This document shows positions 712 to 46,560 of a DNA stretch of 64,000 nt, one piece after another (the first letter of the stretch is position 1; the number at the start of each line of letters is the position of its first letter). The notes beneath the pieces are model-generated. The model had not been told where the DNA came from. It worked only from the letters and a program-made list of their open reading frames with translations, and made no database searches. This DNA is from Eledone cirrhosa (taxonomy: Eukaryota): contig OZ024741.1 in the NCBI GenBank assembly GCA_964016885.1, positions 67,766,001 through 67,830,000 of the forward strand. The letters run 5' to 3'. A program made the translations under genes and the position numbers.

Positions 712-1324
712 AGGGGTGTATGTATTTGAGTGCGTGTGTGTGTGTGAATGTGTGTGTATATGTGTGTGCGGGTGTGGACGTACGCTTGTGGGTTTGTTTG
801 CGTGACTGTGCCTATACAGCAGAAACACCTTTGACAAACCGTGCTTTGTCACCAATATTACTGTGTTGTGGAAGGGCTACGCTGCATATTAAAAACCTCT
901 TGTCTATATAGTTATTTGTTAACCCACGAATTAATCGGTCTCTCAAACGTTTTTGTCATCGTATCGATGATCTGCCTATTTTCTATTGAAGATTTATGCT
1001 GATGAATTCAGACGAGTTAAGGACCATCTGGTAGTATGTATATATACATTTGACTTTTTATGTAGTTCTTTCTTTAAGAGTGCGATTCAACGCTGTTGCA
1101 AGAGTTTTCACAGACATTATCACAGGAGGGTTATCTGTTTGTCTTTTCTGTCTGATAAATAAAAATAACGTTACTAACTTTGCGTTCCATCCCTACTCAC
1201 TACTTAACACTGGGTGAAAACTAACTGTATGTATGAGAGGATTCTCTCAATTGAAATCAGGAATATTTGTTTGTAAACTTGATTGTTTTCTTTTGCTAGT
1301 TTAATGCCATCAAATATTTAGATA

Positions 1325-1700
1325 TTGGCACATATAAGATTCGATCTGCGGATAATATTTGCTGACAATATTTTCTTACCAATTACCAATGCTTCTCAAA
1401 ACTCGGAGGCTTTGGAGTCAGTCAACAAAACACATTACGCTCCAATAATCAGGTTATCAGCTATGTCCATGAAAGTGAAATACCAACACGTCCGTAGTTT
1501 CCTCCATTCTAATGCTGCACACAATCTGAAGTGAAGACGAGCGGGAGAAGCTGTGATGTTCTGTTCACACGTGTGGCACATTCCCAGTTGCCTGGGAGAT
1601 GGAACCATGGTCTTAATATACTGGCTTATATTCTTGTAGGCGTGAGGATCCATTAGAAGGAGGTATTATATTTGAAGAAGAAGAAAATAAGGTCACACTG
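1325..1700 (+). pseudogene. Heavily decayed RTE-type LINE C-terminal fragment
   Basis: Peptides across frames (LRIIF...NSEAL; CGTFPVAWE...GIIFEEE) loosely resemble the RTE post-RT region; many stops. Confidence 0.35.
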
Positions 1701-5468: not shown

Positions 5469-5803
5469 TAAGTATATAAAATATGCAGTTTAAATTTCCA
5501 GTTTCTTCATCGTTCAGAAACTAAAATCTCTCCAATATCTTAATAGTTGATTTCTATCGTAATAACCCAAACGTCTATGTAGACAACATCAAACAGATTA
5601 TAATAGTGTCAGACATATATATGCGGTGAGGAGAAACGGATTGAAGAGGTGATATTGAGGGGAACAGAGTGGGTCAGAAATAATCAACGTTGACTATTAC
5701 ATACTTTTTCTGTCACATTTCCCCTCTCTCTCATACACACACACACACAAACACACACTATATATAAATATATATATATACGTATATATATATATATATA
5801 TTT

Positions 5804-5851
<48 letters not shown>

Positions 5852-5853
5852 TT

Positions 5854-5898
<45 letters not shown>

Positions 5899-6061
5899 AT
5901 AGCATATATATAATTACAATAAGATAAGTTGCATAATTCTTCCAGATAAATATGATTTCCACGGACCAAGAACTTTTTAGTTCTTTTGAAATTATCAAGA
6001 ATGTTTGATGATTTCAAACGAATGAAACGAATGAAATTCTTTATACCAGAAACAAATTATA

Positions 6062-6152
<91 letters not shown>

Positions 6153-6173
6153 AAATATATATATATATATATG

Positions 6174-6217
<44 letters not shown>

Positions 6218-6281
6218 TACTGCCAATACTGAAATTGTATAATCAAGACCGTAGCGGTATGTCATATATCAAATCATATAT

Positions 6282-6327
6282 TTTATCTGATGAAATAATA
6301 CACTACCTTTGAAATATATATAATAAA
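6282..6327 (+). ncRNA. Minimal type I hammerhead motif, family C (stem II degenerate)
   Basis: TTTAT-CTGATGA-...-GAAA-TATATA-TA-ATAAA; stem I TTTAT/ATAAA. Confidence 0.55.
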
Positions 6328-6373
6328 GCATATATTTTGATTATGTGAATATCCTTCATTTGTTAATATTTTG

Positions 6374-6438
<65 letters not shown>

Positions 6439-7037
6439 GTTTGTTTGATAACTTCTGGCTGAGTGCTTAATTCGGTTTGTCTAAGGGAATTTCATTCCTT
6501 TGTCTCAAATTTCGAATTCACCGCCAAAACGGGGGTTACCTCCCTTGGAGAAAACCACGTGTCTATAGAGAAAGTTCCTGCTAGAACACACCCGCTGAGG
6601 CTATACAACGCAATACTTGTTGACGAAGTAAACCCTTTGTTCTGTCGTCAGACCCCTGCAAGCGGAATTAGTTGATCTCGGATTTACAGAAACCTAGCGT
6701 GGATGTTGTATGTTATATGTGATGTATATCGTATGCTATACGATATGCATCATGTATTGCTTTTGGTCTCCGCGTGATGGTCCAGGTCATTCAAAATCTT
6801 TTCCTGAGTCCAGTCTTTTTCGTTGCTATGGCAATGCCGCTGGACTGCCGATCGCTATATTTGATTTGCAAAGCTGTCTAAACGTATTTTTATTACTCTG
6901 GGGTATTATTCTCCATCGAGTGCTAAAGCTACTATCCGAATTTGCATGCGTTATCTTAGCCGCAGCCTAAAGCTTCATTAATGGTGTACTAAAATTTATA
7001 TATATATATGTATATATAAATATATATATATATATAA

Positions 7038-7175
7038 GGTAAGTTATTCCGGGTTGAATCGGAGGTAACCACAGTAAATAAGGTACTCAATACATAGCAG
7101 AGTATAAAAGTTTTAATATAGATAAGATTCTACAGGATTAGAACTGTTTCATTCTTGAGAAATCATCAGGAATAT
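7038..7175 (-). mobile_element. PLE-type terminus, family B
   Basis: Near-identical to 15797-15920 and similar to 31095-31160; starts at (TA)n and contains a hammerhead. Confidence 0.75.
7127..7173 (-). ncRNA. Minimal type I hammerhead ribozyme, family B
   Basis: Reverse complement ATTC-CTGATGA-T-TTC(TCAA)GAA-T-GAAA-CAG(TTCTAATC)CTG-TA-GAAT; intact core, GUA cleavage triplet. Confidence 0.8.
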
Positions 7176-7409
7176 ATATTCGCCACTACCATCAAGTCAC
7201 TCTACGGAGCCAAAACCAAAATGTGAATCCTTGTGGGTCGATATAATCGACTATATACATTTTAGACGGTTCCTCGACACGGCCGCCCTCTACCGACAGA
7301 AATGCGTGAAAGAATACGAGTCTAGTTATGTTTCAATTTTAACCCTAAGCTAGAACAGAGAGCTGGGTAACTTGAAAGGCTCCATCTATGTCTTTTTATC
7401 TCCCTATCT

Positions 7410-9885: not shown

Positions 9886-9987
9886 TAGATATATAGGAAC
9901 GAGTAGGACCCCGACGGCTGAGCTCAAGCCGTTTCGACGGCTAATTCTGCGTTATGGTCCACCTGGTTCCTTACCACATTTCCTTCG

Positions 9988-9990
<3 letters not shown>
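9698..9990. mobile_element. Two short PLE-type termini, family A
   Basis: Share gaccccgacggctgagc...ccgtttcgac (inverted arm) and tail gcgttatggtccacctgg...ttaccac with 15.3 kb and 32.2 kb; TA/GA-flanked. Confidence 0.75.
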
Positions 9991-14833: not shown

Positions 14834-15210
14834 CTTCCCTATGTCACCCCATCTCTTTCTTCTTCTTCTTCTTCTTCTTCTTCTTCTTTTTCTTTTTCTT
14901 CTTCTTCTTCTTCTTCTTCTTCTTCTTCTTCTTCTTCTTCTTCTTCTTCTTCTTCTTCTTCTTCTTCTTCTCCTACATCGTAGTCTTCCAACTATCAGTA
15001 AATTTCTACTTCCATCACAATATTCTTTACCGCCTACTCCGACAAATTCTCTAGTGTAATTTCCAAGCACGTTAATTAAGCAACGCCATTAAACGAAATA
15101 CAGTCCTTCCGCCCCTACTTCCTCAATATCACCCCCTCAACTCTACCCTCACACACCACTCAATTTACCTAATAAATTTTCCAACTTGCCCACTCTATCT
15201 AGCTATCTAT

Positions 15211-15274
<64 letters not shown>

Positions 15275-15276
<2 letters not shown>

Positions 15277-15748
15277 CGAAGGAATTGTGGTAAGGAACCA
15301 GATGGGCCTTAACGCACCAAAGTACTCAATACTTAGGGTAGTAGAGTGGGTAATAGTAACAAGTATGACCCCGACGGTAGAGCCCAAGCCGTTTCGACGG
15401 CTATTTCTGGACTAAATAATAATTTTTATCCTGGTAAATAAATAGCCGAACTTCTCAGAGGGTATTTCATTATATGGGAAGATAGTAATTGTCAAGAGGA
15501 TTTGTCGAAAATTTGTTGTAAAAACAGATAAATCTATCATGGCGCCCCTACCTCCCACCAAATGCCATGATAGATTTATCTGTCTTTACATAAATTTTTG
15601 ACCAATCCTCTTGACAATTACTATTTTCCCACATAAGGAAATACCAACTGAGAAGTTCGGTTATTTATTTACCAGGCTAAAAATCCTTATTTAGTCCAGA
15701 AATAGCCGTCGAAACGGCTTGAGCTCTGCCGTCGGGGTCATGCTTGTT

Positions 15749-15752
<4 letters not shown>
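15275..15752. mobile_element. PLE-type asymmetric inverted repeat, family A (arms ~15354-15543 / ~15563-15752; 80-nt tail on left)
   Basis: ~190-bp arms between (TA)n; each arm has hammerhead topology with a CTGAGAA core variant. Confidence 0.8.
15368..15463 (-). ncRNA. Hammerhead-like motif with variant core (CUGAGAA) and extended stem II
   Basis: ACCCT-CTGAGAA-..CGGCTATTT...AAATAGCCG.C-GAAA-CGG...CCG-TC-GGGGT; partner at 15643-15738 (+). Confidence 0.55.
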
Positions 15753-15796
<44 letters not shown>

Positions 15797-15798
<2 letters not shown>

Positions 15799-15980
15799 TT
15801 AGTTATTCCGGGTTGAATCGGAGGTAACCACAGTAAGTAAGGTACTCAATACATAGCAGAGTATAACAGAGTATAAAATAGATGAGATTCTACAGGACTA
15901 GAACTGTTTCATTCTTGATGATTCCTGATGATTTCTCAAGAATGAAACAGTTCTAGTCCTGTAGAATCTCATCTATTTAA
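15797..15980. mobile_element. PLE-type asymmetric inverted repeat, family B
   Basis: Minus copy with tail (15797-15918) then plus-strand arm 15921-15978; (TA)n on both sides. Confidence 0.8.
15921..15967 (+). ncRNA. Minimal type I hammerhead ribozyme, family B
   Basis: ATTC-CTGATGA-T-TTC(TCAA)GAA-T-GAAA-CAG(TTCTAGTC)CTG-TA-GAAT. Confidence 0.85.
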
Positions 15981-15982
15981 AA

Positions 15983-16030
<48 letters not shown>

Positions 16031-16770: not shown

Positions 16771-17212
16771 TAATCTAGCTGTCGTCTGTTCGATAGCGTA
16801 GACGTAATTCATTTCGCGCAGAAGTTTTGTCCCAATTTATTGCGGAAATTTTGTAAGTTTAATTTTAATTTTGATACTATTGTGTAGCTTGACCCCCCCC
16901 CCCCCGTCTGAACTGTCAGGCGGTGGGTCAGCTCATTTTCGCCCCTCCCAAGGGTGAAAAACCTGTTTTTTTTAATTTTGTTGCATAAAATTTCAATCGT
17001 CTGGGAGAAATGTTAAAGGAAGCTAACGAAAATAGTGGAAGGGGGACAGCGGTAAGAGTTGTAAGCTCGCACGCTTTAGTCCCCCCCCCCATTCCTTCCC
17101 AACTAACGTCATAGAGAAGGAAAGAAAAAATAAAATAAAAACAGACGAATGTGCGGAGAAAAATGTCGACGAAAACACAAATCTGGAGATTGATTCCAAC
17201 AACAACAGAAAT

Positions 17213-18969
17213 TTGAAAGAATTGCATGACAATATTAATACCACAAACAAAGAAACAACAAACACAAAAATAACATTTGAAAACAACAACATCATAACAG
17301 AAAGCAAAACAGACGACAAAGTCAACACCAATAACATCTCATTTGCACAAACAACGAAAAAATATTTAACGTACATACCTGAAAATATTTCAGATGTGGC
17401 ACAAAGAATAAAAAACGCCAAACAATTCATAACTCAAGGGGAAAATGGAGCCTTGTCGGTGAAAATGCCCCAAGAACTCACCAAAGATATTGAAAGTCGG
17501 TGGGTCGTTTTCCGCACCATCAACGACATCTAAAAAAAGCCACAACAACCAACACAGGTAGAAATTAAAGCGGTACTTAGAGAAGTATTTAATGAAGCCA
17601 CTTTCATAAGAGAGACAGGTTGTATGGAAGTCTGGCCATTATTATGAGGAATGAATCGGCGGCGAAAAAATATGCTTTGTCGCCGATTCGTTCGACAAAT
17701 TTTACCTTTTATCCATCTTATATGGGTAAAAGAACTCAGCGCATATGGCTGGATGCGTTGATGCCAGATATGGACTACTGCTGGCTCATAGCTGGTTTCA
17801 TCGATCCAGCGAATGACAACGTGATTTCCATTGGGAAAACCACAGGCAATGCGTTCAGTGGAACAGGTATAGAACTTGTAGTGCAAATGAAGCCTGAACG
17901 CATCGCCCAAATACCCGACAGAATCCTATTAGAGGGTCACGGGTATATAAACATTAGCGTGGATGGGAGAAGGCCGTCCTGTCATATCTGTGCAGGCAGA
18001 GAGCACCTGAAGGCGGCTTGTCCCCAACTCAACAAGAAGAAAACCCTGCTACCAACACCAGCTCCACTACCACCACAACAGATAAACAAACAACAAAACT
18101 CAGTCCCACCCAACCCGTCCCTCAGTAAAACTACACCACCACCACAACACAAACAGACACAACACATTACCCCAAAACAAAACACAGTCCCACCCAACCC
18201 CTCACTCAATAAAACAACACAACCACCGCAGCCACAACACACAACACAGTCTAACATGGTGACATGCATCTCCCCCACAAAGAAAACTAACACGGAAACA
18301 CTACCAGCAAACATACCTCTTCCCTCCAACACTGAAGATAACCCAACGAATTCGAAGGAAGAAACGGAGTCCTTCAGACAGATTAAAAGAAAAAAAAGAA
18401 AACATGTGCAAAACACACAAGGCCAAACAGCCCCTACCCAAATGTCAACACAATCCAACAAAACACAAAACACCCCTCCAGCAACAAACAAAACCAAACC
18501 TTCCCCTCCTCTCTTCGAAACACTCACACCATCCGAAAAAAAGACATTACACTATACTTACATCAACGGAAACAATAATAAATTAAATGAACTCATAAAC
18601 AATAACCTTTCGGTACAAACCGAAGGGGTAAACTTTGTTTTTTCAGAAAACAACCCACAATTAAAATTAATAAAGGTCCCAATGAACCTCTACCAAAAAC
18701 TAAAAAAGGATTTTAAGGAGGACGTAGGACCACCCTTTGTCAAACCCATAAACCGCGTCCTCCTAAAAAGCTTTCCCCCTCCCCTTCCCCTCCCCAACAC
18801 AACTCCAAACACCCCAACCCCGCCACGCACTGACGACCCCACACCACCACAAGACACCCTTCACCCAACACCCCCGACCCCATGGAAGTCGTGCGACCCG
18901 AATCCCGGGAAGCAGAAAGGTAGGTCTCTACACTCTCCTTTGGCTTTGCCGCCCACAAGGATGTGTTAA
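17213..18969 (+). pseudogene. Tx1 ORF1 (gag-like), frameshifted
   Basis: ORFs 17213-17533 and 17620-18969; GRRPSCHICAGREHLKAAC CCHC knuckle followed by a Pro/Thr/Gln-rich tail. Confidence 0.85.
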
Positions 18970-21900
18970 GAGTAGGATGTTTGAATGCACGTGGCCTGGG
19001 CTCAACCTGGAAGCAAGCAAAGCTTCTAAATGACCTCAGGTCACGTGGTATAATGTAATGGTTATCTGTGAGACTCGGATCAGCGTCGTGCGGCAGCTGG
19101 CCCCTACCTTCGATGACTTTGAGGTGCACGCATCTCTCTGTCAACCTGGAGGTGGGGGTGGGGTTGTCGTACTGCTGGAAAAACACCTGGGTCTCGCCGT
19201 ACAGGTTGTTCACTCGGACCCGGAAGGTCGTTTGTTGGTGCTAGACGTTGGCAGTAGTGGAGGTGCGGCCTTGAGACTGGTCGCCGTCTACTCCCCTTTC
19301 GGACCTGAACGACCCGACTTCTTCCAGCGTCTGGAGACTTTTCTGGGAACGTCGCGTTCCCTGCTTCTAGTGGGGGACTGGAATGACATCCTAGATGCAC
19401 GTTGGGACTATGCAGGAGCATGTCCTAATAGAGGGGGGGGTAACAGCCTCAAGGGGTTACTCGACCGTTTAACTTGGTCGATAGATATCGACTAGATTTT
19501 CCAACTGTGCCAACCTGGACTTGGACGAACCACAGTGGTCAATCTAGATCGTACTTAGATAGATTCTTAGTTAGAAGTAAGGATAGGGACATATTAAGCT
19601 GTCCAGAAATGCTCACGGTTGGCTATACAGATCACAAATTAGTGACCTGCGTAGTCAATCTCGAGAGAACACATAGACAGGGTCCCGGTTACTGGAAACT
19701 TAATTTGTCTTTACCGGCAAAAGAGGCTTACAGAGTCCGGAGAGGTTGACGGGTGCAATCGTCAACAACCGATGGTGGGCATCTCTCAAAAGAAAGATTA
19801 GAACAGAATCAATAAGTTATAGCAAGATGTTAGCTGCCGATAGGAATAGGAACGAGAAAGAATTAACAGGTAAATTAGAAGAGGCAATCAAGAGCGAAGA
19901 TGTGGCCAGAGTGCTGGCATCGAGGACGGCCTTGAGCCAGTTTTTCGATGCAAAGCACGAAGGCTGCGTCATTCGAAGTAAAATACGAGCTCTAGGTAAT
20001 GAGGGGGCCAAAGCCGTTGGCTGGGCCCGCGTGACAGAAGCTAAGAGTGGAAATCGATCCACCATCCGGTCCTTGCAAGACGAGGATGGACGGGTGATCC
20101 GGAAGCCTAAGCAGATGTGCGAGGCCTTTCAAAGGCACTGTGCCCGATTGTTCGGGGGAGGCGAGGGTCCGGGCGGGGACGTGGATTTCGGTCCATACCT
20201 CGACGGCCTGCCGTGTCTCTCGAGCGAAGAGGCAGAGTCCTGCGAGGGACCAATCTCGGCTGATGAGATCGGGGATGCGCTGAGCCAATGCCACAGACGC
20301 AAATCTCCAGATCTCGATGGTATACCTTACGAAATTTATTTAGCAATGCCGGTCTTCTTCTCCGAACTCCTCGAAGCAGTCTACTGCAATTGGCAGCAGA
20401 ACAGGAGAATTCCTTGTTCTGTAGCCAAGGGTGTAGTATCGCTGGTGAGGAAGGACGAGAACAAGGGGGATAATAATTTTCGGCCCATAACCCTGCTAAA
20501 CACAGAGTTAAAGATTTTGGCCAAGGTGTTAGCAAAGAGGTTGGCGCTTGTCGTGGGTAGCCTGGTGGGAGATGCGCAGACATGTGTTATCCTATCCAGG
20601 TCCATTCACGACAACCTCCACCTCATGCGATACATCATAGAGAGGGTTGGCAACAAACCCGGCTTTGGTGGGGCCCTGATCAACTTGGATCAGTCTAAGG
20701 CGTTCGATAGGGTCGACCATGGTTACCTGGAATCGGTGCTAGCGGCGGCTGGGTTCGGTCCTGTTTTCAGAGGCTGGATCACTGCCTTACATAGCAACCA
20801 CATCTGTTCTAGGATCAAGGTGAACGGCTACCTTTCGAAGCCGTTCGAAATCACACGATCCATTCGACAGGGGTGCCCTCTTTCCTCCCTTCTGTACGTA
20901 TTGACTCTCGAGCCTTTACTGAGGAAGTTGGAGTTGTTGCAGGGTATCCCCCTGGAACCAGGATTGAGCAAAGCGGTGTCGACCTACGCCGATGACGTAA
21001 CAGTAATGGTATCGACCGACTCGGAGATCGAGGCGATCGGTACCTTATTGGAGGAATACGAAAGGTTGTCAGGAGCGAAACTGAACCGGGAAAAATCCAT
21101 CGGGCTGCAACTCGGAACGTGGAGAGGCAGATCGATGCTTCCCGACGGTGTCGTCGGACACTGGATGGAGGGCCCGGTGAAGTTGCTTGGGGTCTGGTTT
21201 GGACCGGACCTCCAGGTGGAAAAGAACTGGGGCGATGTTACTAGCAAGGTGTTTGCACTGACCCAGAAATGGGCCAAGTGTAAGCTGTCCCTGAAAGGAC
21301 GGGCGGAGGTGACGAACATTTACATAGCGTCCGTCACCTACTATCGCCTGACTGCCGTGCCTTGCCCTAAGGAAACACTCACCACCATGGAACGCATGCT
21401 CTTTCAATTTCTTTGGAAGAAGCGCCCTCCTATGGTGAGAAGATCCATCTGCTGCCAACAACCTTCGAAAGGAGGGCTGGGGACGCCGTGGTTGATGATG
21501 CGTAGGCACGCATTAAGGCTACGGCACCTACAGGTATTCCTCACTGGTCAACCGGTGTGAGCTCCGTTCGTGAGACGAGCCTTTCCGAGACTCGTCTCGC
21601 TCACCGAGCTGCAGTCCTGGGTCAAGCAAAGATCCGGAAAACTGGGCGACTGGCACACTGAGTGTGCCAAGGCGCTCAGGGCTCTCTGGAAAGCGGACCC
21701 GGCCATCGGTGGAGAATCCACCTCGTCATTCTATAGAGGGCTGGTGGCTAGCAGGGGCGATGACACCCTTTGAGAGTCGCTGGACATGGAAGAGGACGAA
21801 CTGGCCAGCCTGTTCGGTAGGACTTTCGGCCCGGGACCAATGGACAACTTCCAGAAGTCACTGGCCTGGCAGTGCTACCGGGGTCTCTACCCGTTCGAGA

Positions 21901-22366
21901 AAAGTTCTACAGACACGGGCGCTCGGGCAGGGATCCCTCGAAAAAGATATGCCCTAGATGCGTGCGTCACGAAGAAACCGTTGCGCACGCATTGGTGCAC
22001 TGTCCGGGCGTGGCTGATCTGTGGGGCTACGCCGAACGACTGCTGTCGCGGGTGGCGCCGATTCGATTGACCGCCGAGTCCGTGATAACAATCAAGCCGC
22101 CTCCTCTCTTCACAAAGGAAGCAAAGGCGGTTTTTCTGTGCGTAATAGCCATGTTGAAAGAGGTTGTTTGGTGGACACGATTGAAAGGTCTGAGGTCAGG
22201 CAACTTCCTCTCTGGCCATAGTCTGGTCTACTTCTTCCGATATCACTTCGGAAGAAGGATAAGAATGGAGAGAGAGGTGCTTGGCCAGAGGCAGTTTTAT
22301 GAAAGGTGGGTGATAGTGGCGAGAATAGCTCATGTAAATGGGCCTTCTCTGTATACCATCCTGTAG
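18966..22366 (+). pseudogene. Tx1 ORF2 (APE endonuclease, reverse transcriptase, zinc knuckle), multiple stops and frameshifts
   Basis: LRVGCLNARGL, ICET, VGDWN, SYLDRF, TDH, GPGYWKLN; NFRPITLLN, LDQSKAFDRV, RQGCPLS, YADD; CPRC..EETVAHALVHC. Confidence 0.93.
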
Positions 22367-23362: not shown

Positions 23363-23737
23363 TTTTCTTTATTAACCACAAGGGTTTACATAAAGTAGAC
23401 ATTAAGGACAGTACAGGACAATACAGGACGGTACAAATGGGCATTTCTGCGTGTAAAAAAACAGAGGTTGAAATAAAATAACAAAGAAAAATTCCCCAAT
23501 AGGGGGGAGACTTCCGAGGGACATTTGTGGAGAAAGCTCATTAAAAGACCACAGTGGCCCTGACCACCAGGGCAAGTGCCCTCTCCCAGTTTTCCACCTT
23601 TAATTTACAGACACATACTCAGAGAAGGCCCATTCATTCGGGCCATACTTGCTTCTCTCACCCATCTTTCAACAAAATGCTGGGAAGAGAGCACTTCCCT
23701 CTCTACCCTGATTTTCCTTTTCAAATGAAATTTGAAA
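23362..23737 (-). mobile_element. 5'-truncated 3' end of a second Tx1 family, in (AAT)n
   Basis: Minus 23605-23737 encodes FKFHLKRKIRVEREVLSSQHFVERWVREASMARMNGPSLSMCL*, homologous to the ORF2 end at 22.3 kb; ends ccttgtggttaataaagaaaac(att)n. Confidence 0.85.
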
Positions 23738-24385
23738 AATAATAATAATAATAATAAGCTATTAGCACAAAGTCAGCGAAGAGAAAATGAAACATGTGTC
23801 AGTGAAAACGAGGTAAACTGTAACACTTCGAACCCCAGGGTTGGGGCGGAATCACTGGCAACAGAACAAATTAAAGAAAGGATCGAAAAAGTGGAGGGAG
23901 TGCATGCTCAGGATGAAACTCCAAATGAAAATAATGAGATCGTAAATGATAAAGAAATGAATGAGAATGAACTTGCCAACTTGAAGGATGAAATTATGAT
24001 CGATTGGATGAAAATGAAAGAATCTGACATGGGGCAACGAGAGACCCTCCCTAAGATCCAGAACTCCAAACAGAACCAAAAGATAATACACAAGACTTAC
24101 ATAATTCTCAAAAACATTATCATCACAAACAAACTAAACATTACTGATTTAAATCATCTCTATTATGCATCGGCTGAAGTCACCACTCACTTATGTGGAG
24201 TGAAGATGAAAAAACAAAGGAATTCCCACAAGAAATCTACTTGGCAAGAGAACATCAATCGCCAAATAAACCTTCTCCGATCTGACAGAAATTTTAACAA
24301 ACTATAAAGTAGGTGAACATGTTAAACAAACTAAACTTAGAAAATTGAAAAAAAAGTACAGTATAAAATAAAATGTGACATAGAC

Positions 24386-25912
24386 ATGCTGATAGAAATA
24401 ATCAAGCAAAAAGTGTCGGCCAAAGCTGCTCGTATAAGGCGCTTTGAAAAACGATCTAGATTCTATAAGGACAATAATATGTTCAAAAACAACCAAAGAA
24501 ACTTCTACAGAAAAATTGGTAAGTCAACAATAACTGCTAAATCAATACCACCCAAGGAGGAAGTGCAAGAATTCTGGGAAAAGATCTGGGCCGAAGAAAA
24601 AGTTCATAACATACATGCCCCATGGATAGACAGACAAATGAAAGATACAGCTCACCTTGAGGAACAAATATGGGAAAATATAACAGTTGAACAGTTGCGC
24701 TTGGCTCTAAGAAAAACCAGCAAATGGAAATCCCCAGGAAAAGACAAAATACAAAACTTTTGGATAAATGCCTTCATAGAGTCTCATGAGCTGTTAGCCC
24801 AACTTTACAATGAAATAGTTAAGGAGCCAGAAAAGATACCATCATGGCTAGTTAATGGCATTACATTCCTGCTTCCGAAGAATGATGAGACAAACAATCC
24901 CAAAAATTACAGACCGATAACTTGCTTGACCACAATGTATAAAATTTTAACATCAGTCCTAACTGAATACACATATGACCACCTGATAACAAATGACCTA
25001 TTTCCCATTGAGCAGAAAGGGTGTAAACGAGGCTCATATGGCTATAAGGATCAGCTTCTGGTTAACAAAATGATACTGGAAGATTGTCATAATAGACACA
25101 AAAATCTATCGATTGCTTGGATAGATTATAAAAAAGCATTCGATAGTTTGCCACATAGTTGGATTGAAAAATGTTTAGAGATTTTCAAAATATCCCCCGT
25201 TGTCAGGAGGTTTTTGTCATTCAGTATGAAGACATGGAAAACGACACTCCTTTTGAATAGTGAAACAAAATCACTGGAAGCTGGAGAAGTTAATATTAAT
25301 TGTGGAATTTTTCAGGGTGACTCTTTATCACCGCTTTTATTCTGCATCGCACTTATACCATTAAGTAAAATGCTCAATGAAACAAAACATGGATATAAAG
25401 TCTATGACAAAACCATTAATCACTTGTTCTACATGGATGACCTGAAACTATTTGCAAAAAATGATGAACAATTGCAAGGGCTATTATCCACTGTGGAGAA
25501 GTTCAGTGATGACATTAAAATGGAGTTTGGACTAGATAAATGCGCCAAAGCAACGTTCACCAGAGGAAAGCTGCTGAAGAGTTCAGACATTAATCTTGAT
25601 CGGGGGAACGTGATAAGAGAACTTGATCAAGAAAAAACTTACAAATATCTAGGTGTTTGTGAAGGAGACGGAATCAAGCACTCGACAATGAGGGAAAGGA
25701 TAAGGAAGGAATGTTACCGCAGAGTAAGAGCAATCTTAAGAACGGAATTGAAAGCAAGGAATAGGATCGATGCCATAAACACGCTTGCCATACCAGTAGT
25801 AACCTACAGTTACAATGTCATCAACTGGTCAAGCACAGAGATCCGTAGGCTCGATACAAAAATTCGAAAATTCTTAACCATGCACAGAAAATTCTTAACC
25901 ATGCAGATATAG
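24386..25912 (+). pseudogene. R4/Dong reverse transcriptase domain
   Basis: WKSPGKD, NYRPITCL, EQKGC, WIDYKKAFDS, GIFQGDSLSPLLF, HLFYMDDLKL, FGLDKC, YKYLG. Confidence 0.93.
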
Positions 25913-25971
25913 ATAGAATATATCTCCCTAGGAAAGAAGGAGGACGTGGGTTAATCCAGTTAGACATTGCG

Positions 25972-26979
25972 TTGAAAACTGCAACAATTGGATTATCTAC
26001 ATATCTAAGGGAATCACATGATTGGATGATCAAACTCGTTTTGAAACACGAAAGCATCAAAAGATCATATTCCATTACAAAAGATGCACAAAGATACAGT
26101 AATGGACTACAAATTTCAGAAGTCCCATTTACTGCTGAAATGGAAAACACAGAAAAAGCAAAGCAGGTAAAAGTAACTGCAAAGAAAGAACTGCTACAGA
26201 AACTGTCTAAGAAATGGCAAGAAAAGCCTCTGTATGGAAAATACCCAGAGCGAGCTAACAATCCTGATGTTGACAAAACTTTAACCCATCAGTGGTTGGC
26301 ATCCTCTGGACTGAAATCGGAGACTGAAGGACTGATTATATCAGCACAAGATCAATGTCTGCCAACAAAAAATTACCAAGCCAACATAATAAAAAATGGA
26401 TGCAGCCCATTATGCCGTGTATGCAAAAAACAACCAGAGACCATTGACCATATAATTTCAATGTGCAGTCCTATAGCTCCAACCGAATACCTAAACAGGC
26501 ATGACAGAGCTGCACAATACATACATTGGATAATGTGTAAGCATTTTGACCTGCCCCATCAAAAGAATTGGTGGGAACATCAACCACCTGCCATACTTGA
26601 AAAAGATCACATCTCAATCTTGTGGAACTTTAGCATCCAAACAGACCGAAAAATAGATGCAAATAGACCTGATATAATATTGAAGGACTTTAAAAAGAGG
26701 GTATGCCTGCTAATTGATATGTCTGTTCCAATAGACAAGAATGTATCTATAAAAACATTTGAAAAATTGAGCAAGTATAAGGACCTGGAGTTAGAAATTG
26801 GAAAAATGTGGAAATTGAGAACTAAAACAATACCAGTGGTTGTAGGCACTCTGGGAATGATACCTAGGGGGTCTAATGATTACTTATCGCAGATCCCAGG
26901 AAACCCGCGTATAGGAGAAATACAAAAGATAGTACTAATGGGAACTGCCCATATACTAAGGAAGATTCTGTCAATATAA
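25972..26979 (+). pseudogene. R4/Dong C-terminal CCHC knuckle and restriction-like endonuclease
   Basis: ETEG..AQDQ, CRVC...ETIDHIISMC, RHD, RPD...IDMSVP, EKLSKYKDL, PVVVGTLG. Confidence 0.92.
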
Positions 26980-27145
26980 GTACATCACAAGTCTAAACAC
27001 TAAAGATGCATGTGTGAGTATGTATGTTCTTCCTTGAACATGGCGGACCTTGTTGTCTCTTGAGGTCACTGTTTGTGACTTGGTGATAACTCGTATGAAC
27101 ATAAAGCAAGATAAATGCAACTGTAATAATAATAATAATAATAAT

Positions 27146-28449
27146 TAAAAAATGAAGGAATTGATAAGAACTAAATATATTCGGAGAATAAGGAGCGTAT
27201 TAAAGTCACATCTGAACAGTAGGAATGCCATAAGTGCAGTAAATTCCCGAGCTGTGTCTATTATTAGGTACAGTGCAGGAATTCTGAGATGGAATGTTGC
27301 TGAACAAAAAGAAATGGATAGGAAGACTAGGAAGCTATTGACTATCTACAGCATGTTCCACAAGAGGAGTGATATCGATAGACTCTACTTAAGGAGGTCT
27401 GAAGGTGGAAGAGGTCTTATCAACATAGAGGACTGTGTTCAGATGGAGAAAAACAACCTACACAAATACGTGACTGATAGTAAGGAGCCAATGCTCAGAA
27501 CTGTACTGAAGGAGGGGACAATAGGCCAGGGGATGTCCAAGGAGGAAATAACATCAAGGAGAAAGAGCAGCCTTCAGGAAAAATCCCTTCATAGTACCTT
27601 CTTTGAGAAAACTGAATTTAGAGATCCACAGACATGGAACTGGTTGAAAAGAGGAGACCTTAAAAAGGCTACAGAAGGAATGTTAATGGCTGCGCAGGAG
27701 CAGGCCCTCAAACCGAAATGGTTGAAACACCATATTTACAAGGAGGAGGCTAGCCCACTGTGCAGGATCTGTGGAGAGAGAGAGGAGACTGTGGCTCACA
27801 TTGTATCCGAGTGTAAACACCTAGCCCAGACTCACTATAAGGGCTGGAGACATGATGTGATGGGCAGGGTGATCCACTGGCACCTATGCAAAGTAAGCAA
27901 TTTACCACATTCTGAGAAGTGGTATGAGCATATGCGAGAGGCGGTGATAGAAAACGATCAGGTGAAGGTGCTGTGAGGATTTTAGGATACAGACAGACAA
28001 TAAACTGGAACACAATAGACCTGACCTGGTGGTTGTGGACAAAGAAAAAAGATCGTGCCTGATTGTGGATGTGGCCTGCCCATTCGACACGAGAGTGCAA
28101 GAGAAGAAGAGGGAGAAAATTAACCGATACCAGGACTTAAGGTGGGAGGTAAAAAGGATTTGGAACCACCATGAAGTCAAAGTGATCCCGATTGTCATAG
28201 GCGCACTAGGGACTATCTCAAAAAGTTTCCAGGGATGGTTAAAGAAAATTGGCCCCTTCACGCTTTTTGGAACGCTTCAAAAGGCATGCTTGCTGGGAAC
28301 AGCAAGAACCCTCCGATACGTCCTGAATATCTGAGGCTGCAGGTAGTGGCTTGATATTCATTTCAACAAACTTTCCAGTTAACTAACATCAATGACTGAG
28401 ACTCAAAGAGTAATAACAATAATAAAATAATAATAATAATAATAATAAT
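27146..28449 (+). mobile_element. Dong/R4-clade element #2 (different family), 5'-truncated, (TAA)n tail
   Basis: ORFs 27152-27976 and 28029-28334 (IDRLY.RRSEGGRGL, CRIC..EETVAHIVSEC, RHD, RPD, PIVIGALG); one-base insertion at VLW/DF. Confidence 0.9.
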
Positions 28450-29028: not shown

Positions 29029-29627
29029 CATTACATGTTTATTATATTTGTTTTATTCTCCCTTTGAACACACATTGAGCTCTGTTTTCCTATATGTGTT
29101 CCTGGGAAAGCCTTAATGAACGCATGTGTATAAATGTTAATTATTCTGTTTAGTGTGCTTATGTGTCTCAATATGTCTGCTTTTATATAACTGTGTGCGC
29201 ATGGATACATCCGTGCATGTGAGTGTATGTCTAATAATACGTATGTCTGGCGTATGTGTGCCTATACATGTGTGTGTTTCTGTTTTATTTGAGTAATTGG
29301 ACATAAGAAGTGATGTAACTGTATGTATCATCCTCTGGGGGTGGTTCTATGTACGAGCACTTTATGTGTGCACATGCATGTATGGTTGTATGTGAGAGAT
29401 AAAGAGATAGTGTTTAATGATATTGTTACTGTTGCTATTACATTGGTTTGATACAGATCAATGTCTTCAGATAATTCTGAAACTAATACGACTTTGTTAT
29501 TGCATCCTCTTTATATATATATATATACGGAGAGTGAGAGAGAGAGTAAGAGAGATAGAGAGAGAGAGAAAAAAAAAAGAAAAAGAGTAAGACAGATAGA
29601 CAGATATAAATATATATATGTATATAT

Positions 29628-29817
29628 TAGCTTTCACCGTATTTTTGACTAAAGAAATTTTAGTCTGATAATGGGGTTTAGAACCCTCAGATAAATGGAA
29701 AAAGATGAGTATTGACGTACATGGGAGTCGAACCCACATCTTTGGTTATCCAGATCACTGTGCTACCATTACACCAACACATAAAGTGCTCACTGTTTCA
29801 AAACATACTTACTTGTC
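29628..29817 (-). mobile_element. tRNA-headed SINE-like element with PLE-style inverted insertion
   Basis: tRNA-like cloverleaf 29713-29783 (-), body 29628-29705 (-) homologous to 46077-46162 (+), inverted tail 29788-29817 (+) homologous to 46184-46211; TA-rich flanks. Confidence 0.7.
29713..29783 (-). pseudogene. tRNA-like domain (Pol III A and B boxes), not a functional tRNA
   Basis: TATGTGT-TG-GTGT(AATGGTA)GCAC-A-...-GTGGG(TTCGACT)CCCAT-GTACGTC-A; anticodon stem mispaired. Confidence 0.75.
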
Positions 29818-29848
29818 ATATATATATATATATATATACATATATATG

Positions 29849-30566: not shown

Positions 30567-30676
30567 CATATATATGTATATATATACATATATATATACA
30601 TATATATACATATGTCCTAAGGCTCTGATACCATCAACACTATAAACACAGAGCTGGCATATCTAAGAACTGACTA

Positions 30677-30734
30677 ACTGCCTGATGAGGTCATAGCCAT
30701 TCAATGGCTATCATCGAAATATATATATAGCAGT
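30677..30734 (+). ncRNA. Type I hammerhead ribozyme, well preserved
   Basis: ACTGC-CTGATGA-G..ATAGCCAT(TCA)ATGGCTAT..C-GAAA-TATATATA-TA-GCAGT; perfect stem I, in a TA-bounded island 30614-30780. Confidence 0.88.
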
Positions 30735-30775
30735 AAATTAAGGATTATGAGTTCATACAATTGACTTATGTTTCG

Positions 30776-30844
<69 letters not shown>

Positions 30845-31094: not shown

Positions 31095-31216
31095 TATCCC
31101 GGGTTCAATCGGGGGGAACCAAAGTAAGTAGGGCACTTAATACATAGCAGAGTATAAATATTTGATGATTTCTCCCGAATGAAACAGTTCTAGTCCTGTA
31201 GAATTCATTTCTATAT

Positions 31217-31220
<4 letters not shown>
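31095..31220. mobile_element. PLE-type terminus, family B (minus tail joined to plus arm with a clipped hammerhead at 31161-31204)
   Basis: tgatgatttctcccgaatgaaacagttctagtcctgtagaat; tail homologous to 7038-7105. Confidence 0.7.
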
Positions 31221-38017: not shown

Positions 38018-38880
38018 TTGTTATACTTTGGGAGGGTCATGTTGCCAATAAGAAACACACGAACCAGTTGCTTTCACTTAAATTTATTATAAATTAAATT
38101 TATAAATTTAGGAATTTATAAATTTCCGTTTGGTTGGTTGGTTCCACAACCAGACGATTGTTCATATATTGTCAAAGTTCTTTCGTCACACATTCTGTGA
38201 CCTCTCCAGTGTCTGAGGATTCTTTTCTTTGTTTCTGTGCCTCTCCTTTGTTCTGTACTACGCCATCTTGTTTTTGTGTGTGTTGTGTGTTTAGTTTGCG
38301 CATGTGTTACATCCGGGTGTCTGTGTGCGTTTATATTTGTTTATTTATTTGTTTATTTACATGTTACTGGTTGGTTGTTTGTTCTATGTGTGTGTGTGTG
38401 TTTTCATTTTGTCCCTAATTGTAAGTTGTGATGTTGCTATTCCATTCATGTTTTCTATTTAATTTGGTTGGAGTTCATTTATGTTTATTGCCTCTGTGAT
38501 TTGTCTAAACATTGCGTCTTTTCTGTGTGTAGATTCTATTTTTATTTCTATGTTCTCTAATTTACCCTTATGTTCTATTTTAGCATGTTGGTAGAGTACA
38601 GATGATTCTTTACTATCTTGAAGCTCTCGCCAGTGTTCATTTATCCGTTCTCCTATACTACGAGCTGTCTCACCTATGTACACTATATTATTATCTCTAC
38701 ATTGTCCTTCAGTACCTCTTATGCTATATACTACATTTCTAGTTTTACAGTTAATATGGGGGCTTAGTTTACAGATTATACATTTCTTATCTATACAGGG
38801 AGGTCTTTGAAAAGGGTATGTATTGCTAATAATTGTTTTTATGGGGGTACCTGGTCTTGCTAAACAAACTCAGAAACGAC
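38018..38880 (-). mobile_element. 5'-truncated Penelope-like element (Neptune-type): GIY-YIG endonuclease, 3' region with hammerhead, ends in (TA)n
   Basis: GIY-YIG ORF followed by the family D terminus; hammerhead 38171-38213 has a CTGGAGA core. Confidence 0.88.
38437..38870 (-). pseudogene. PLE GIY-YIG endonuclease with upstream Cys-rich linker
   Basis: Frame extends upstream of the called ORF: ...PPCIDKKCIIC...NCKTRNVVYSI...QC...VYIGETARSIGERINEH...LYQH...RQITEAINI; frameshift before LNRKHEW. Confidence 0.88.
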
Positions 38881-45800: not shown

Positions 45801-45877
45801 AACCAAAAACCCCATCTTGTATATATATATTTACTGTGAACACATATATGTATATATATACCACATATATATATATT

Positions 45878-46209
45878 TATTAAAATAACAGATTAAAGTT
45901 TAAGCAAAGAATCCCTGCTTTCACCCGTAACTGAATCTTTCAGAAGATTCCTTTAAGGGCAGCGATTCTTTGCTTAAACTTTAACCTGTTATTTTAATAA
46001 ATATTTTCTCTAGGGTTCTTATATATTTGATATATATTTATCTTTATCGAGCCCTCTTTGGATTTTAGTCTTCAAATTTTCCATTTCACCGAGGGTTCTT
46101 AACCCAACTATCAGGCTAAATAATTTTCTTTAATTTCTTTAGTCGAAATACGGCGAGAGCTTACATTTATAATTTCAAACTCGCTCGCTGTTTCGAAAAT
46201 ATTCTTACT

Positions 46210-46211
<2 letters not shown>
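45878..46211. mobile_element. PLE-type inverted terminus (family F; arms ~45878-45935 / ~45940-46001) followed by a structured 3' region and tail
   Basis: Homology to 37620-37690 and to 29628-29817; ends in (TA)n. Confidence 0.7.
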
Positions 46212-46266
<55 letters not shown>

Positions 46267-46272
<6 letters not shown>

Positions 46273-46560
46273 TAAAAAGGAAAAGAAACACTGACAAATT
46301 TTTCCCAGTGAAAAATAGTTTAATTAGGAATAAGTATAAATTAGTAATAAGTATTAGTTAGTATTCAGTTTTAGTTTTAAGTTTTTACCGGTTGCGCAAC
46401 CGGTAAAAACTTAAAACTAAAACTGAATACTAACTAATACTTATTACTAATTTATACTTATTCCTAATTAAACTATTTTTCACTGGGAAAAATTTGTCAG
46501 CATTTTCTTTTCCTTTTTACTAATATATCACAACTCGTATGTCACACCTCTATTTTTTTT
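46267..46560. repeat. Spacerless ~260-bp palindrome centred at 46395/46396, plus ~30-nt tail
   Basis: ...ttttaccggttgc|gcaaccggtaaaa...; inner ~105 bp of the arms appear perfectly complementary; (TA)n flanks. Confidence 0.9.

What the first reader, a model, noticed from the sequence alone, without database searches (positions are those of the whole stretch)
29628..29817. Candidate SINE mobilised by Penelope-type machinery: complete tRNA-like head fused to a PLE-style 3' end
Seen: on the minus strand a 71-nt cloverleaf with A box (TGGTGTAATGG) and B box (GGTTCGACTCC) runs into ~80 nt that align closely to 46077-46162 (+). The adjacent 30 nt (gctcactgtttcaaaacatacttacttg) match the extreme tail 46184-46211, but in the opposite orientation to the body. 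This 'tailless inverted body joined to tail, between TA runs' layout is also seen in the PLE termini at 9896-9990 and 31095-31220, and the inversion junction falls at the tRNA 5' end. There is no poly(A) or (ATT)n tail. Established: SINEs normally borrow 3' ends from APE or RLE LINEs, although Pol III-type hammerhead repeats are known in schistosomes and newts. Inference: a Pol III transcript retrotransposed by a GIY-YIG PLE, which would be an unusual SINE/partner pairing.
Basis: partly seen in the sequence, partly recalled or inferred. Interest (0 to 1): 0.8.

Follow-up and report, generated by a model that had tools for sequence, protein, structure and literature searches.

The report
tRNA-bearing parasite of Penelope retrotransposons
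This is one of an estimated 4,000 copies of a 260-base repeat that carries a tRNA-like gene, shows the insertion pattern of Penelope-type jumping genes, has no self-cutting ribozyme, and likely uses the tRNA as its promoter, an unusual pairing.

Summary
29628-29817 is one insertion of a family with an estimated ~4,000 loci. The repeat unit is a 260-bp head-to-tail tandem: tRNA-like gene, body, tail, 51-bp linker. Sister units of 270 and ~294 bp exist. Of 84 two-armed insertions, 72 have one tailed and one tail-less inverted end; none has two alike. Ends sit in (TA)n, without target duplication or poly(A). This is the Penelope-like (PLE) signature. No hammerhead is present.

Corrections: 46077-46211 is a sister copy of the same family, not a PLE donor. 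No autonomous partner shares the 3' module (147 PLE loci). The tRNA is not the usual 5' end. In subfamilies with A58, 43 of 67 copies break off just 3' of the T-loop, against 3 of 23 in the subfamily with T58 (p=2e-5), possibly a methyl-A58 reverse-transcription stop. Pol III transcription is inferred only; a T5-6 run follows the tRNA and no RNA data were available.

Verdict: new variant of known kinds (retrozymes, Sm-alpha). Interest 0.6.

The parts
29628..29782 (-). Inverted, tail-less arm: unit positions 2-156 of the 260-bp unit
   Evidence: 98% to family consensus
29713..29783 (-). tRNA-like cloverleaf (unit 1-71; first base replaced in this copy); D-arm like tRNA-Gln; anticodon loop differs between subfamilies, so probably not a decoding tRNA
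29766..29776 (-). A box
   Evidence: sequence
29724..29734 (-). B box / T-loop; 29728 is standard position A58 (unit 56), the predicted methylation and RT-stop site
29699..29703 (-). T5 run 10 nt after the tRNA (Pol III terminator-like); part of the trailer that pairs with the linker end
29783..29786 (.). Four bases at the head-to-head junction that match neither arm of the consensus
29787..29817 (+). Tailed arm: unit positions 179-209, only 31 nt long
29610..29627 (.). Left (TA)n target
29818..29848 (.). Right (TA)n target
46077..46211 (+). 5'-truncated tailed copy of the 270-bp sister unit (positions 83-217); same family, not the partner
45873..46079 (.). Terminus of a Hydra-type PLE (inverted tail-less arm 45873-45930, sense arm 45959-46079) fused to the sister copy; candidate partner family

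Best explanation
The stretch is one insertion of a non-coding tandem repeat unit (tRNA-like gene, body, tail, linker) whose copies show the two-ended Penelope-like insertion pattern, so it is likely copied by a borrowed Penelope-type enzyme and likely transcribed from its tRNA promoter. Inferred cycle: (1) RNA polymerase III starts a few bases before a tRNA in a tandem copy and sometimes reads through the T5-6 run into body, tail, linker and further units. (2) A PLE protein binds near the tail and linker, cuts (TA)n on both strands, and starts cDNA at two internal sites 36-53 nt apart. (3) The two cDNAs join head-to-head, giving one tailed and one tail-less inverted arm. (4) The linker lies downstream of both start sites, so a monomer insert loses it and only tandem copies would be masters. 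(5) Copying often stops just 3' of the T-loop, plausibly at host-added methyl-A58. Shown: unit, subfamilies, end pattern, target, absence of a hammerhead, truncation pile-up. Inferred: steps 1-5. My odds: PLE mobilisation 0.9, Pol III promoter role 0.65, methyl-A58 stop 0.5.
For: Ends: 72 of 84 two-armed insertions are tailed plus tail-less, 0 tailed+tailed, 0 tail-less+tail-less (123 unique insertions from 139 loci). A TA run follows 84 of 107 tailed and 75 of 84 tail-less ends; background 9-10%. A non-TA direct repeat of 8 nt or more in 4 of 122 (shuffled pairs 14 of 1209); poly(A) at 1 of 244 ends. An autonomous RT+GIY-YIG family in the same genome shows the same two ends: 13 tail-less+TA and 9 tailed+TA of 33. 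This matches PMC8557442 (30-40 bp tail at one end, inverted 5' copy) and PMC11167929 (two internal RT starts, both strands extended, RNA needed about 55 nt beyond them). The two arms of one insertion share variants (fraction 0.41 and 0.36 against 0.09 and 0.07 for unrelated insertions). Promoter: canonical A and B boxes; the first 80 nt are identical between the 260 and 270 consensuses while the rest is about 77% identical. Of 38 arms reaching the tRNA start in the 260 subfamily, 19 end at -9..+2 and only 3 in the next 43 nt; 13 keep a 2-9 nt leader. RT stop: 43 of 67 against 3 of 23, p=2.3e-5, although the old subfamily has the same T-stem and the same palindromes. Methyl-A58 as an RT stop and T-loop target: PMC8599865 abstract, 10.1101/202747 passages.
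Against: No autonomous PLE shares the 3' module (147 loci, 785 kb; three termini at z of 1.6 or less), so the partner is unnamed. A T5-6 run sits about 10 nt after the tRNA in all three subfamilies and should end most Pol III transcripts (recalled knowledge). The old subfamily spread with T at B-box position 58 (66 of 72 alignments). The pile-up at the tRNA start is weak in the 270 subfamily (2 of 8 insertions that reach it) and could be a stall at the 19-bp trailer/linker stem, which is strongest in the 260 unit. No excess misincorporation at A58 in read-through copies (3 of 123). The A58/T58 contrast rests on three subfamilies, which may also differ in partner enzyme and age. Samples are best-scoring hits, not random draws.
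Confidence: 0.6

Rival explanations
1. The element is PLE-mobilised, but the tRNA is not the promoter. Arrays are transcribed by Pol II read-through, and the tRNA fold is either a processing cassette (an RNase P cut standing in for the hammerhead, perhaps followed by circularisation) or a passenger.
For: T5-6 run right after the tRNA; the old subfamily has a non-canonical B box. All three stem substitutions between old and young consensuses keep pairing (too few to be significant). The trailer pairs with the linker end, bringing a monomer's ends together: -24.8, -15.6, -17.2 kcal/mol, reached by 0, 3, 1 of 500 shuffles. About half of the templates that reach the tRNA start were multimers. Six of 38 arms begin at +2.
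Against: 13 of 38 arms keep a templated 2-9 nt leader, which an RNase P product would lack. Leader-trailer pairing should hinder RNase P (recalled). The test for circular templates was inconclusive, and the ~25-unit array has heterogeneous units.
Confidence: 0.22
2. The unit is the pseudo-LTR of an autonomous PLE that captured a tRNA gene, and the short copies are its truncated ends.
For: PLE termini form the same partial tandems. PLE sampling was incomplete: top hits only, and no Naiad was found. Two loci join the unit directly to PLE coding sequence (L199, L161).
Against: All 26 distinct insertions among the first 30 of 675 linker-motif matches are unit copies. Arrays of 3-25 units contain no ORF. 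The two coding fusions involve two different PLE families whose own termini are unrelated to the unit.
Confidence: 0.1
3. It is an ordinary LINE-partnered SINE with 5' inversions, or a MITE or Helitron derivative.
For: tRNA head, 5' truncation and several subfamilies are typical of SINEs, and RTE/CR1-like LINEs are present in the window.
Against: No poly(A) or short-repeat tail and no target duplication. Both arms start at the 3' end and duplicate each other, unlike twin priming, where the inverted part does not overlap (recalled). Arm lengths vary per copy and are asymmetric, unlike terminal inverted repeats.
Confidence: 0.05

Closest known systems
Animal non-LTR retrozymes (PMC7229834; bioRxiv 10.64898/2026.07.22.740005)
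   Same: Non-coding 170-400 nt head-to-tail units, monomers to long arrays, proposed to be non-autonomous PLE derivatives
   Different: Defined by a type I hammerhead, which this unit lacks; it has a tRNA-like gene instead. The passages I read give no end-signature evidence of the kind shown here.
Schistosome Sm-alpha / Sj-alpha (PMC2770079, PMC6765202, PMC8490949; original paper not held)
   Same: SINE-like, tandem, reported as Pol III-transcribed, linked to tRNA-Gln-derived repeats; only tandem copies propagate
   Different: Sm-alpha carries an active hammerhead; PLE-type tailed/tail-less insertion was not described in the passages read. Sequence homology was not tested.
Non-autonomous Chlamys PLEs such as MRC1 (PMC8557442)
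   Same: Non-coding, multicopy head-to-tail, pLTR-forming, in a clade mostly without hammerheads
   Different: They generally share 3' sequence with an autonomous family (none found here); no tRNA is mentioned for them; green algae.
TRIMp3: Helenus, Cassandra, Ajax (PMC10886601)
   Same: A small-RNA gene sits inside the terminal repeat of a non-autonomous retroelement as a likely Pol III promoter; tandem arrays occur
   Different: LTR machinery with primer-binding site, polypurine tract and 4-5 bp target duplications. This unit would be the PLE counterpart.
tRNA-derived SINEs (SINE2)
   Same: A and B boxes, short, 5'-truncated copies, subfamilies
   Different: No LINE-derived 3' end, simple-repeat tail or target duplication; tandem master and internal RT starts.

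Membership tests
PLE-mobilised non-autonomous element | Optional 30-50 bp tail present at one end only | tested here: met
   72 of 84 two-armed insertions tailed plus tail-less, none alike
PLE-mobilised non-autonomous element | Inverted 5'-truncated copy and partial tandems | tested here: met
PLE-mobilised non-autonomous element | (TA)n target without defined target duplication | tested here: met
PLE-mobilised non-autonomous element | Terminal sequence shared with an autonomous RT+GIY-YIG element | tested here: inconclusive
   none in 147 loci; PLE families incompletely sampled
PLE-mobilised non-autonomous element | Mobilisation in trans by a PLE protein | not testable with these tools
   needs a biochemical or cell assay
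Non-LTR retrozyme | Type I hammerhead in each unit | tested here: not met
   Rfam finds only tRNA; no core in three consensuses, while the same scan finds cores in neighbouring families
Non-LTR retrozyme | 170-400 nt head-to-tail units | tested here: met
   260, 270, ~294 bp
Non-LTR retrozyme | Circular RNA intermediate | tested here: inconclusive
   variant-sharing test; no RNA run listed
SINE2 (tRNA-derived SINE) | tRNA-related region with A and B boxes | tested here: met
SINE2 (tRNA-derived SINE) | Transcription by RNA polymerase III | not testable with these tools
   indirect only
SINE2 (tRNA-derived SINE) | tRNA head at the 5' end of full-length copies | tested here: inconclusive
   19 of 38 arms end at the head, 16 run on
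SINE2 (tRNA-derived SINE) | Poly(A) or simple-repeat tail and target duplication from a LINE partner | tested here: not met
TRIMp3 (Helenus-type) | Two LTRs with 4-5 bp target duplication, primer-binding site and polypurine tract | tested here: inconclusive
   anatomy does not fit (inverted tailed/tail-less ends); duplications under 8 nt, primer-binding site and polypurine tract were not scanned for

The most novel reading that the evidence does not exclude
A ribozyme-free class of Penelope parasites in which a captured whole tRNA gene supplies the promoter and defines the RNA's 5' end in place of the hammerhead, and in which the host tRNA methyltransferase marks A58 and throttles copying. The thousands of truncated copies would then be a fossil RT-stop footprint, with one lineage having avoided the block through T58 at the cost of its B box.
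Probability: 0.3. Interest if true: 0.78.

Novelty: new variant of a known kind. Interest (0 to 1): 0.6.

Why it matters
SINE-like elements are normally tied to LINEs, and PLE dependence of short animal repeats has been argued mostly from shared hammerheads. Here it can be read from insertion ends, in a family with no hammerhead. A 260-nt natural trans-substrate with two mapped start sites is a minimal template for PLE biochemistry: what is recognised, how two cDNAs are joined, and whether one complex handles two RNAs. If the A58 effect is real, a host tRNA modification limits a retroelement in vivo, and this can be tested directly.

Tried and rejected
Partner hunt: BLAST or nhmmer of the unit against GIY-YIG loci, Neptune-like, Hydra-like and a further C-terminal-EN family gave only unit copies. 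The PLE ORF beside L037 is separated by (TA)n and has an unrelated 3' UTR. A primer-length Naiad motif had 0 matches, which does not show absence. Six short unit motifs gave only 2 hits, both of one 11-mer, in the PMC8557442 supplement, and three motifs gave none in the PMC13282606 supplement, which was held only as a short text.

Fusions with other PLE-type families at 5' junctions (36 of 60 junctions not at TA; 12 read) point to several families: Hydra-type twice, family B twice (one tailed+tailed, against the rule), others once or twice. No single partner follows.

Expression: no RNA holder listed. Contigs of one run of unknown kind only confirm presence. Circle versus multimer template: inconclusive. 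Misincorporation at A58: no signal.

Parent tRNA: only Gln, Thr, Asp and an Ala-like repeat were compared; Gln and the Ala-like repeat score alike. ARAGORN's Ser(GGA) label is rejected because the anticodon loop differs between subfamilies. One search had wrong coordinates for several rows and was not used. One search's simple extension was noisy and was replaced. The 270 consensus has a few TA-contaminated positions just after its tail. Earlier scan notes: nothing.

Full report
Observation. The cloverleaf, boxes, body match, oppositely oriented tail and TA flanks are all present. The genome is a 3.0-Gb assembly. A cephalopod host is my inference from recalled repeat types and from a Hydra-type ORF resembling the published octopus one; it was not tested.

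The family. A search with the finding gave 957 first-look candidates, with scored full-length hits at 94-99% identity on many contigs. Reading 30 loci showed a 260-bp head-to-tail unit: tRNA (1-71), trailer with a T5 run, body, tail ending at 209, and a 51-bp linker. The window copy has two arms: unit 2-156 inverted and unit 179-209 in sense. The stretch at 46077-46211 belongs to a 270-bp sister unit with the same tRNA. The two consensuses are identical over the first 80 nt and about 77% identical elsewhere. An older ~294-bp subfamily turned up through a D-loop pattern. A body motif has 5,648 exact matches against 22 for the reversed control. The first 100 matches fall in 70 loci, which extrapolates to about 3,950 loci, a lower bound. 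A linker motif has 675 matches. One array has about 25 heterogeneous units bounded by an inverted tail-less arm and a tail.

Insertion anatomy. Among 123 unique insertions from 139 loci, the outer ends were: tailed plus tail-less 72, 5' end plus tailed 26, 5' end plus tail-less 10, classes with an unclassified end 15, two alike 0. Two of the four samples were drawn with tail-containing queries, which favours one tailed end but not a tail-less partner. TA runs follow 84 of 107 tailed and 75 of 84 tail-less ends against 9-10% background. Target duplications of 8 nt or more (4 of 122; shuffled 14 of 1209) and poly(A) (1 of 244 ends) are essentially absent. An RT+GIY-YIG family in this genome shows the same two ends in (TA)n. 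This is the signature described in PMC8557442 (passages) and explained by two internal RT start sites in PMC11167929 (parts 1-2 of 4). In that system the RNA must extend about 55 nt past the start sites, which fits the 51-bp linker (inference). The two arms of an insertion share private variants four to five times more than unrelated insertions, as expected from one RNA or one source locus.

No ribozyme. Rfam finds only tRNA in an array. A hammerhead core scan is negative on all three consensuses and positive on copies of the 31095 family and at 30610-30790.

The tRNA. The head shares 44-47 aligned bases of 71 with genomic tRNA-Gln (z 6.0-7.6), against 34-35 for Asp and Thr; an Ala-like repeat scores 45, so Gln is tentative and rests on the D-arm. 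In the old subfamily 9 of 15 D-loops have the Gln-type extra T. Stems stay paired across subfamilies while both loops change. A T5-6 run about 10 nt downstream is kept in all three, as in the real tRNA genes, so a whole tRNA gene with its terminator was probably captured. The same trailer pairs with the linker end. Of 38 arms of the 260 subfamily that reach the tRNA start, 6 lack the first base, 13 carry 2-9 nt of leader, 3 carry 13-41 nt and 16 run on. This suggests a start site a few bases upstream, plus multimeric templates. The pile-up is weak in the 270 subfamily, and stalling at the trailer/linker stem is an alternative.

Truncation at the T-arm. In samples drawn by the 3' end, the tailed arm ends at unit 57-70 in 29 of 38 (270) and 14 of 29 (260) insertions, but in 3 of 23 of the old subfamily (combined p=2.3e-5; 1, 4 and 5 insertions that ended before unit 70 were left out). 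At arm level the counts are 66 of 117 against 5 of 31. A positional sample gave 14 of 22, with four loci seen before. The old subfamily has the same T-stem, acceptor 3' strand and palindromes, but T instead of A at standard position 58. Methyl-A58 stops retroviral RT (PMC8599865, abstract), and the enzyme also modifies T-loop-like GUUCRA hairpins in other RNAs (10.1101/202747, passages). Against this reading: no misincorporation excess (3 of 123), and only three subfamilies are contrasted.

Partner. Nothing in 147 PLE loci (785 kb) matches the 3' module except unit copies, and three PLE termini score no better than shuffles. Composites exist in which one outer end belongs to another family. 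In the window's 45873-46211 and in L161, a tail-less Hydra-type arm pairs with a tailed unit arm. In L199 the other family is family B; L252 breaks the rule with two tailed ends. Template switching in one complex and later insertion with deletion both fit, so the partner stays open.

Comparison. Closest are animal retrozymes (PMC7229834 passages; bioRxiv 10.64898/2026.07.22.740005 part 1 of 5 and passages), Sm-alpha (passages of PMC6765202, PMC2770079, PMC4209133 and PMC8490949; the original paper was not held), non-autonomous Chlamys elements and Helenus-type TRIMs (PMC10886601 passages). It works like a retrozyme or Sm-alpha but fails retrozyme membership (no hammerhead) and the LINE-tail criterion for ordinary SINEs. 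Ten searches (mostly listings only) showed no description of a tRNA-bearing, hammerhead-less element with PLE ends. The library lacks most subscription papers, bioRxiv supplements were closed, and Dfam/Repbase could not be searched. An octopus annotation lists 893 recently active unclassified SINE families (PMC13282606, part 1 of 3), so the sequence may already be catalogued without this reading. PMC8557442's supplement was seen as search hits and one part; 10.1101/596502 as passages, not relevant. The octopus OK/OR SINEs are recalled only and were not compared.

Verdict. A real, young, abundant family. PLE-type mobilisation is well supported from DNA alone; Pol III drive and the A58 stop are plausible and untested; the partner is unknown. 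New variant of a known kind, interest 0.6.

Noticed in passing
L173, L175-L183 (around 1500-1573): A dispersed long repeat carries an intact, high-scoring (53-72 bits) tRNA-Ala(GGC)-like gene with near-identical flanks of over 250 bp on both sides, in 10 of 16 Rfam hits; probably a larger mobile element bearing a tRNA.
   Followed up: no
L091-L120, L187-L196: Very young (99% identical) Hydra-type PLE family with a ~810-aa ORF and more than 2.5 kb of shared sequence after the ORF, longer than the under-3-kb elements described; 1,909 first-look candidates.
   Followed up: partly
L208-L236, L386-L395; window 38462-38869: PLE family B: C-terminal GIY-YIG but a long insertion in the RT fingers region, a hammerhead-like core in the 3' UTR, and a ~55-nt tail overlapping the ORF start; clade not determined.
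   Followed up: partly
L343 (about 1230-1500, minus strand): Tandem ~89-bp repeats made of only the tRNA plus trailer of the old subfamily, ending at the T run, as expected of short terminated transcripts or local slippage.
   Followed up: no
L289 1912-8830: ~25-unit array with recurring variant sets at lag 3, suggesting satellite-like local expansion.
   Followed up: partly
window 30610-30790; 7030-7190; 15200-16000; 31095-31220: Other short PLE-type families with hammerhead cores; the 9896-9990 family shows the same two-arm layout. Attachment to coding PLEs was not shown.
   Followed up: partly
window 46270-46525: Near-perfect ~250-bp palindrome right after the sister copy, by eye another two-arm insertion.
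   Followed up: no
L129 about 5750-6900; L281: Another non-coding tandem unit of about 460 bp with inverted arms in (TA)n, once fused to the tRNA unit.
   Followed up: no
window 17036-22363 and 23729-28331: LINE-like coding fragments (a Tx1-like element, and two others with RT and C-terminal nuclease-like regions), labelled by eye from translations.
   Followed up: no
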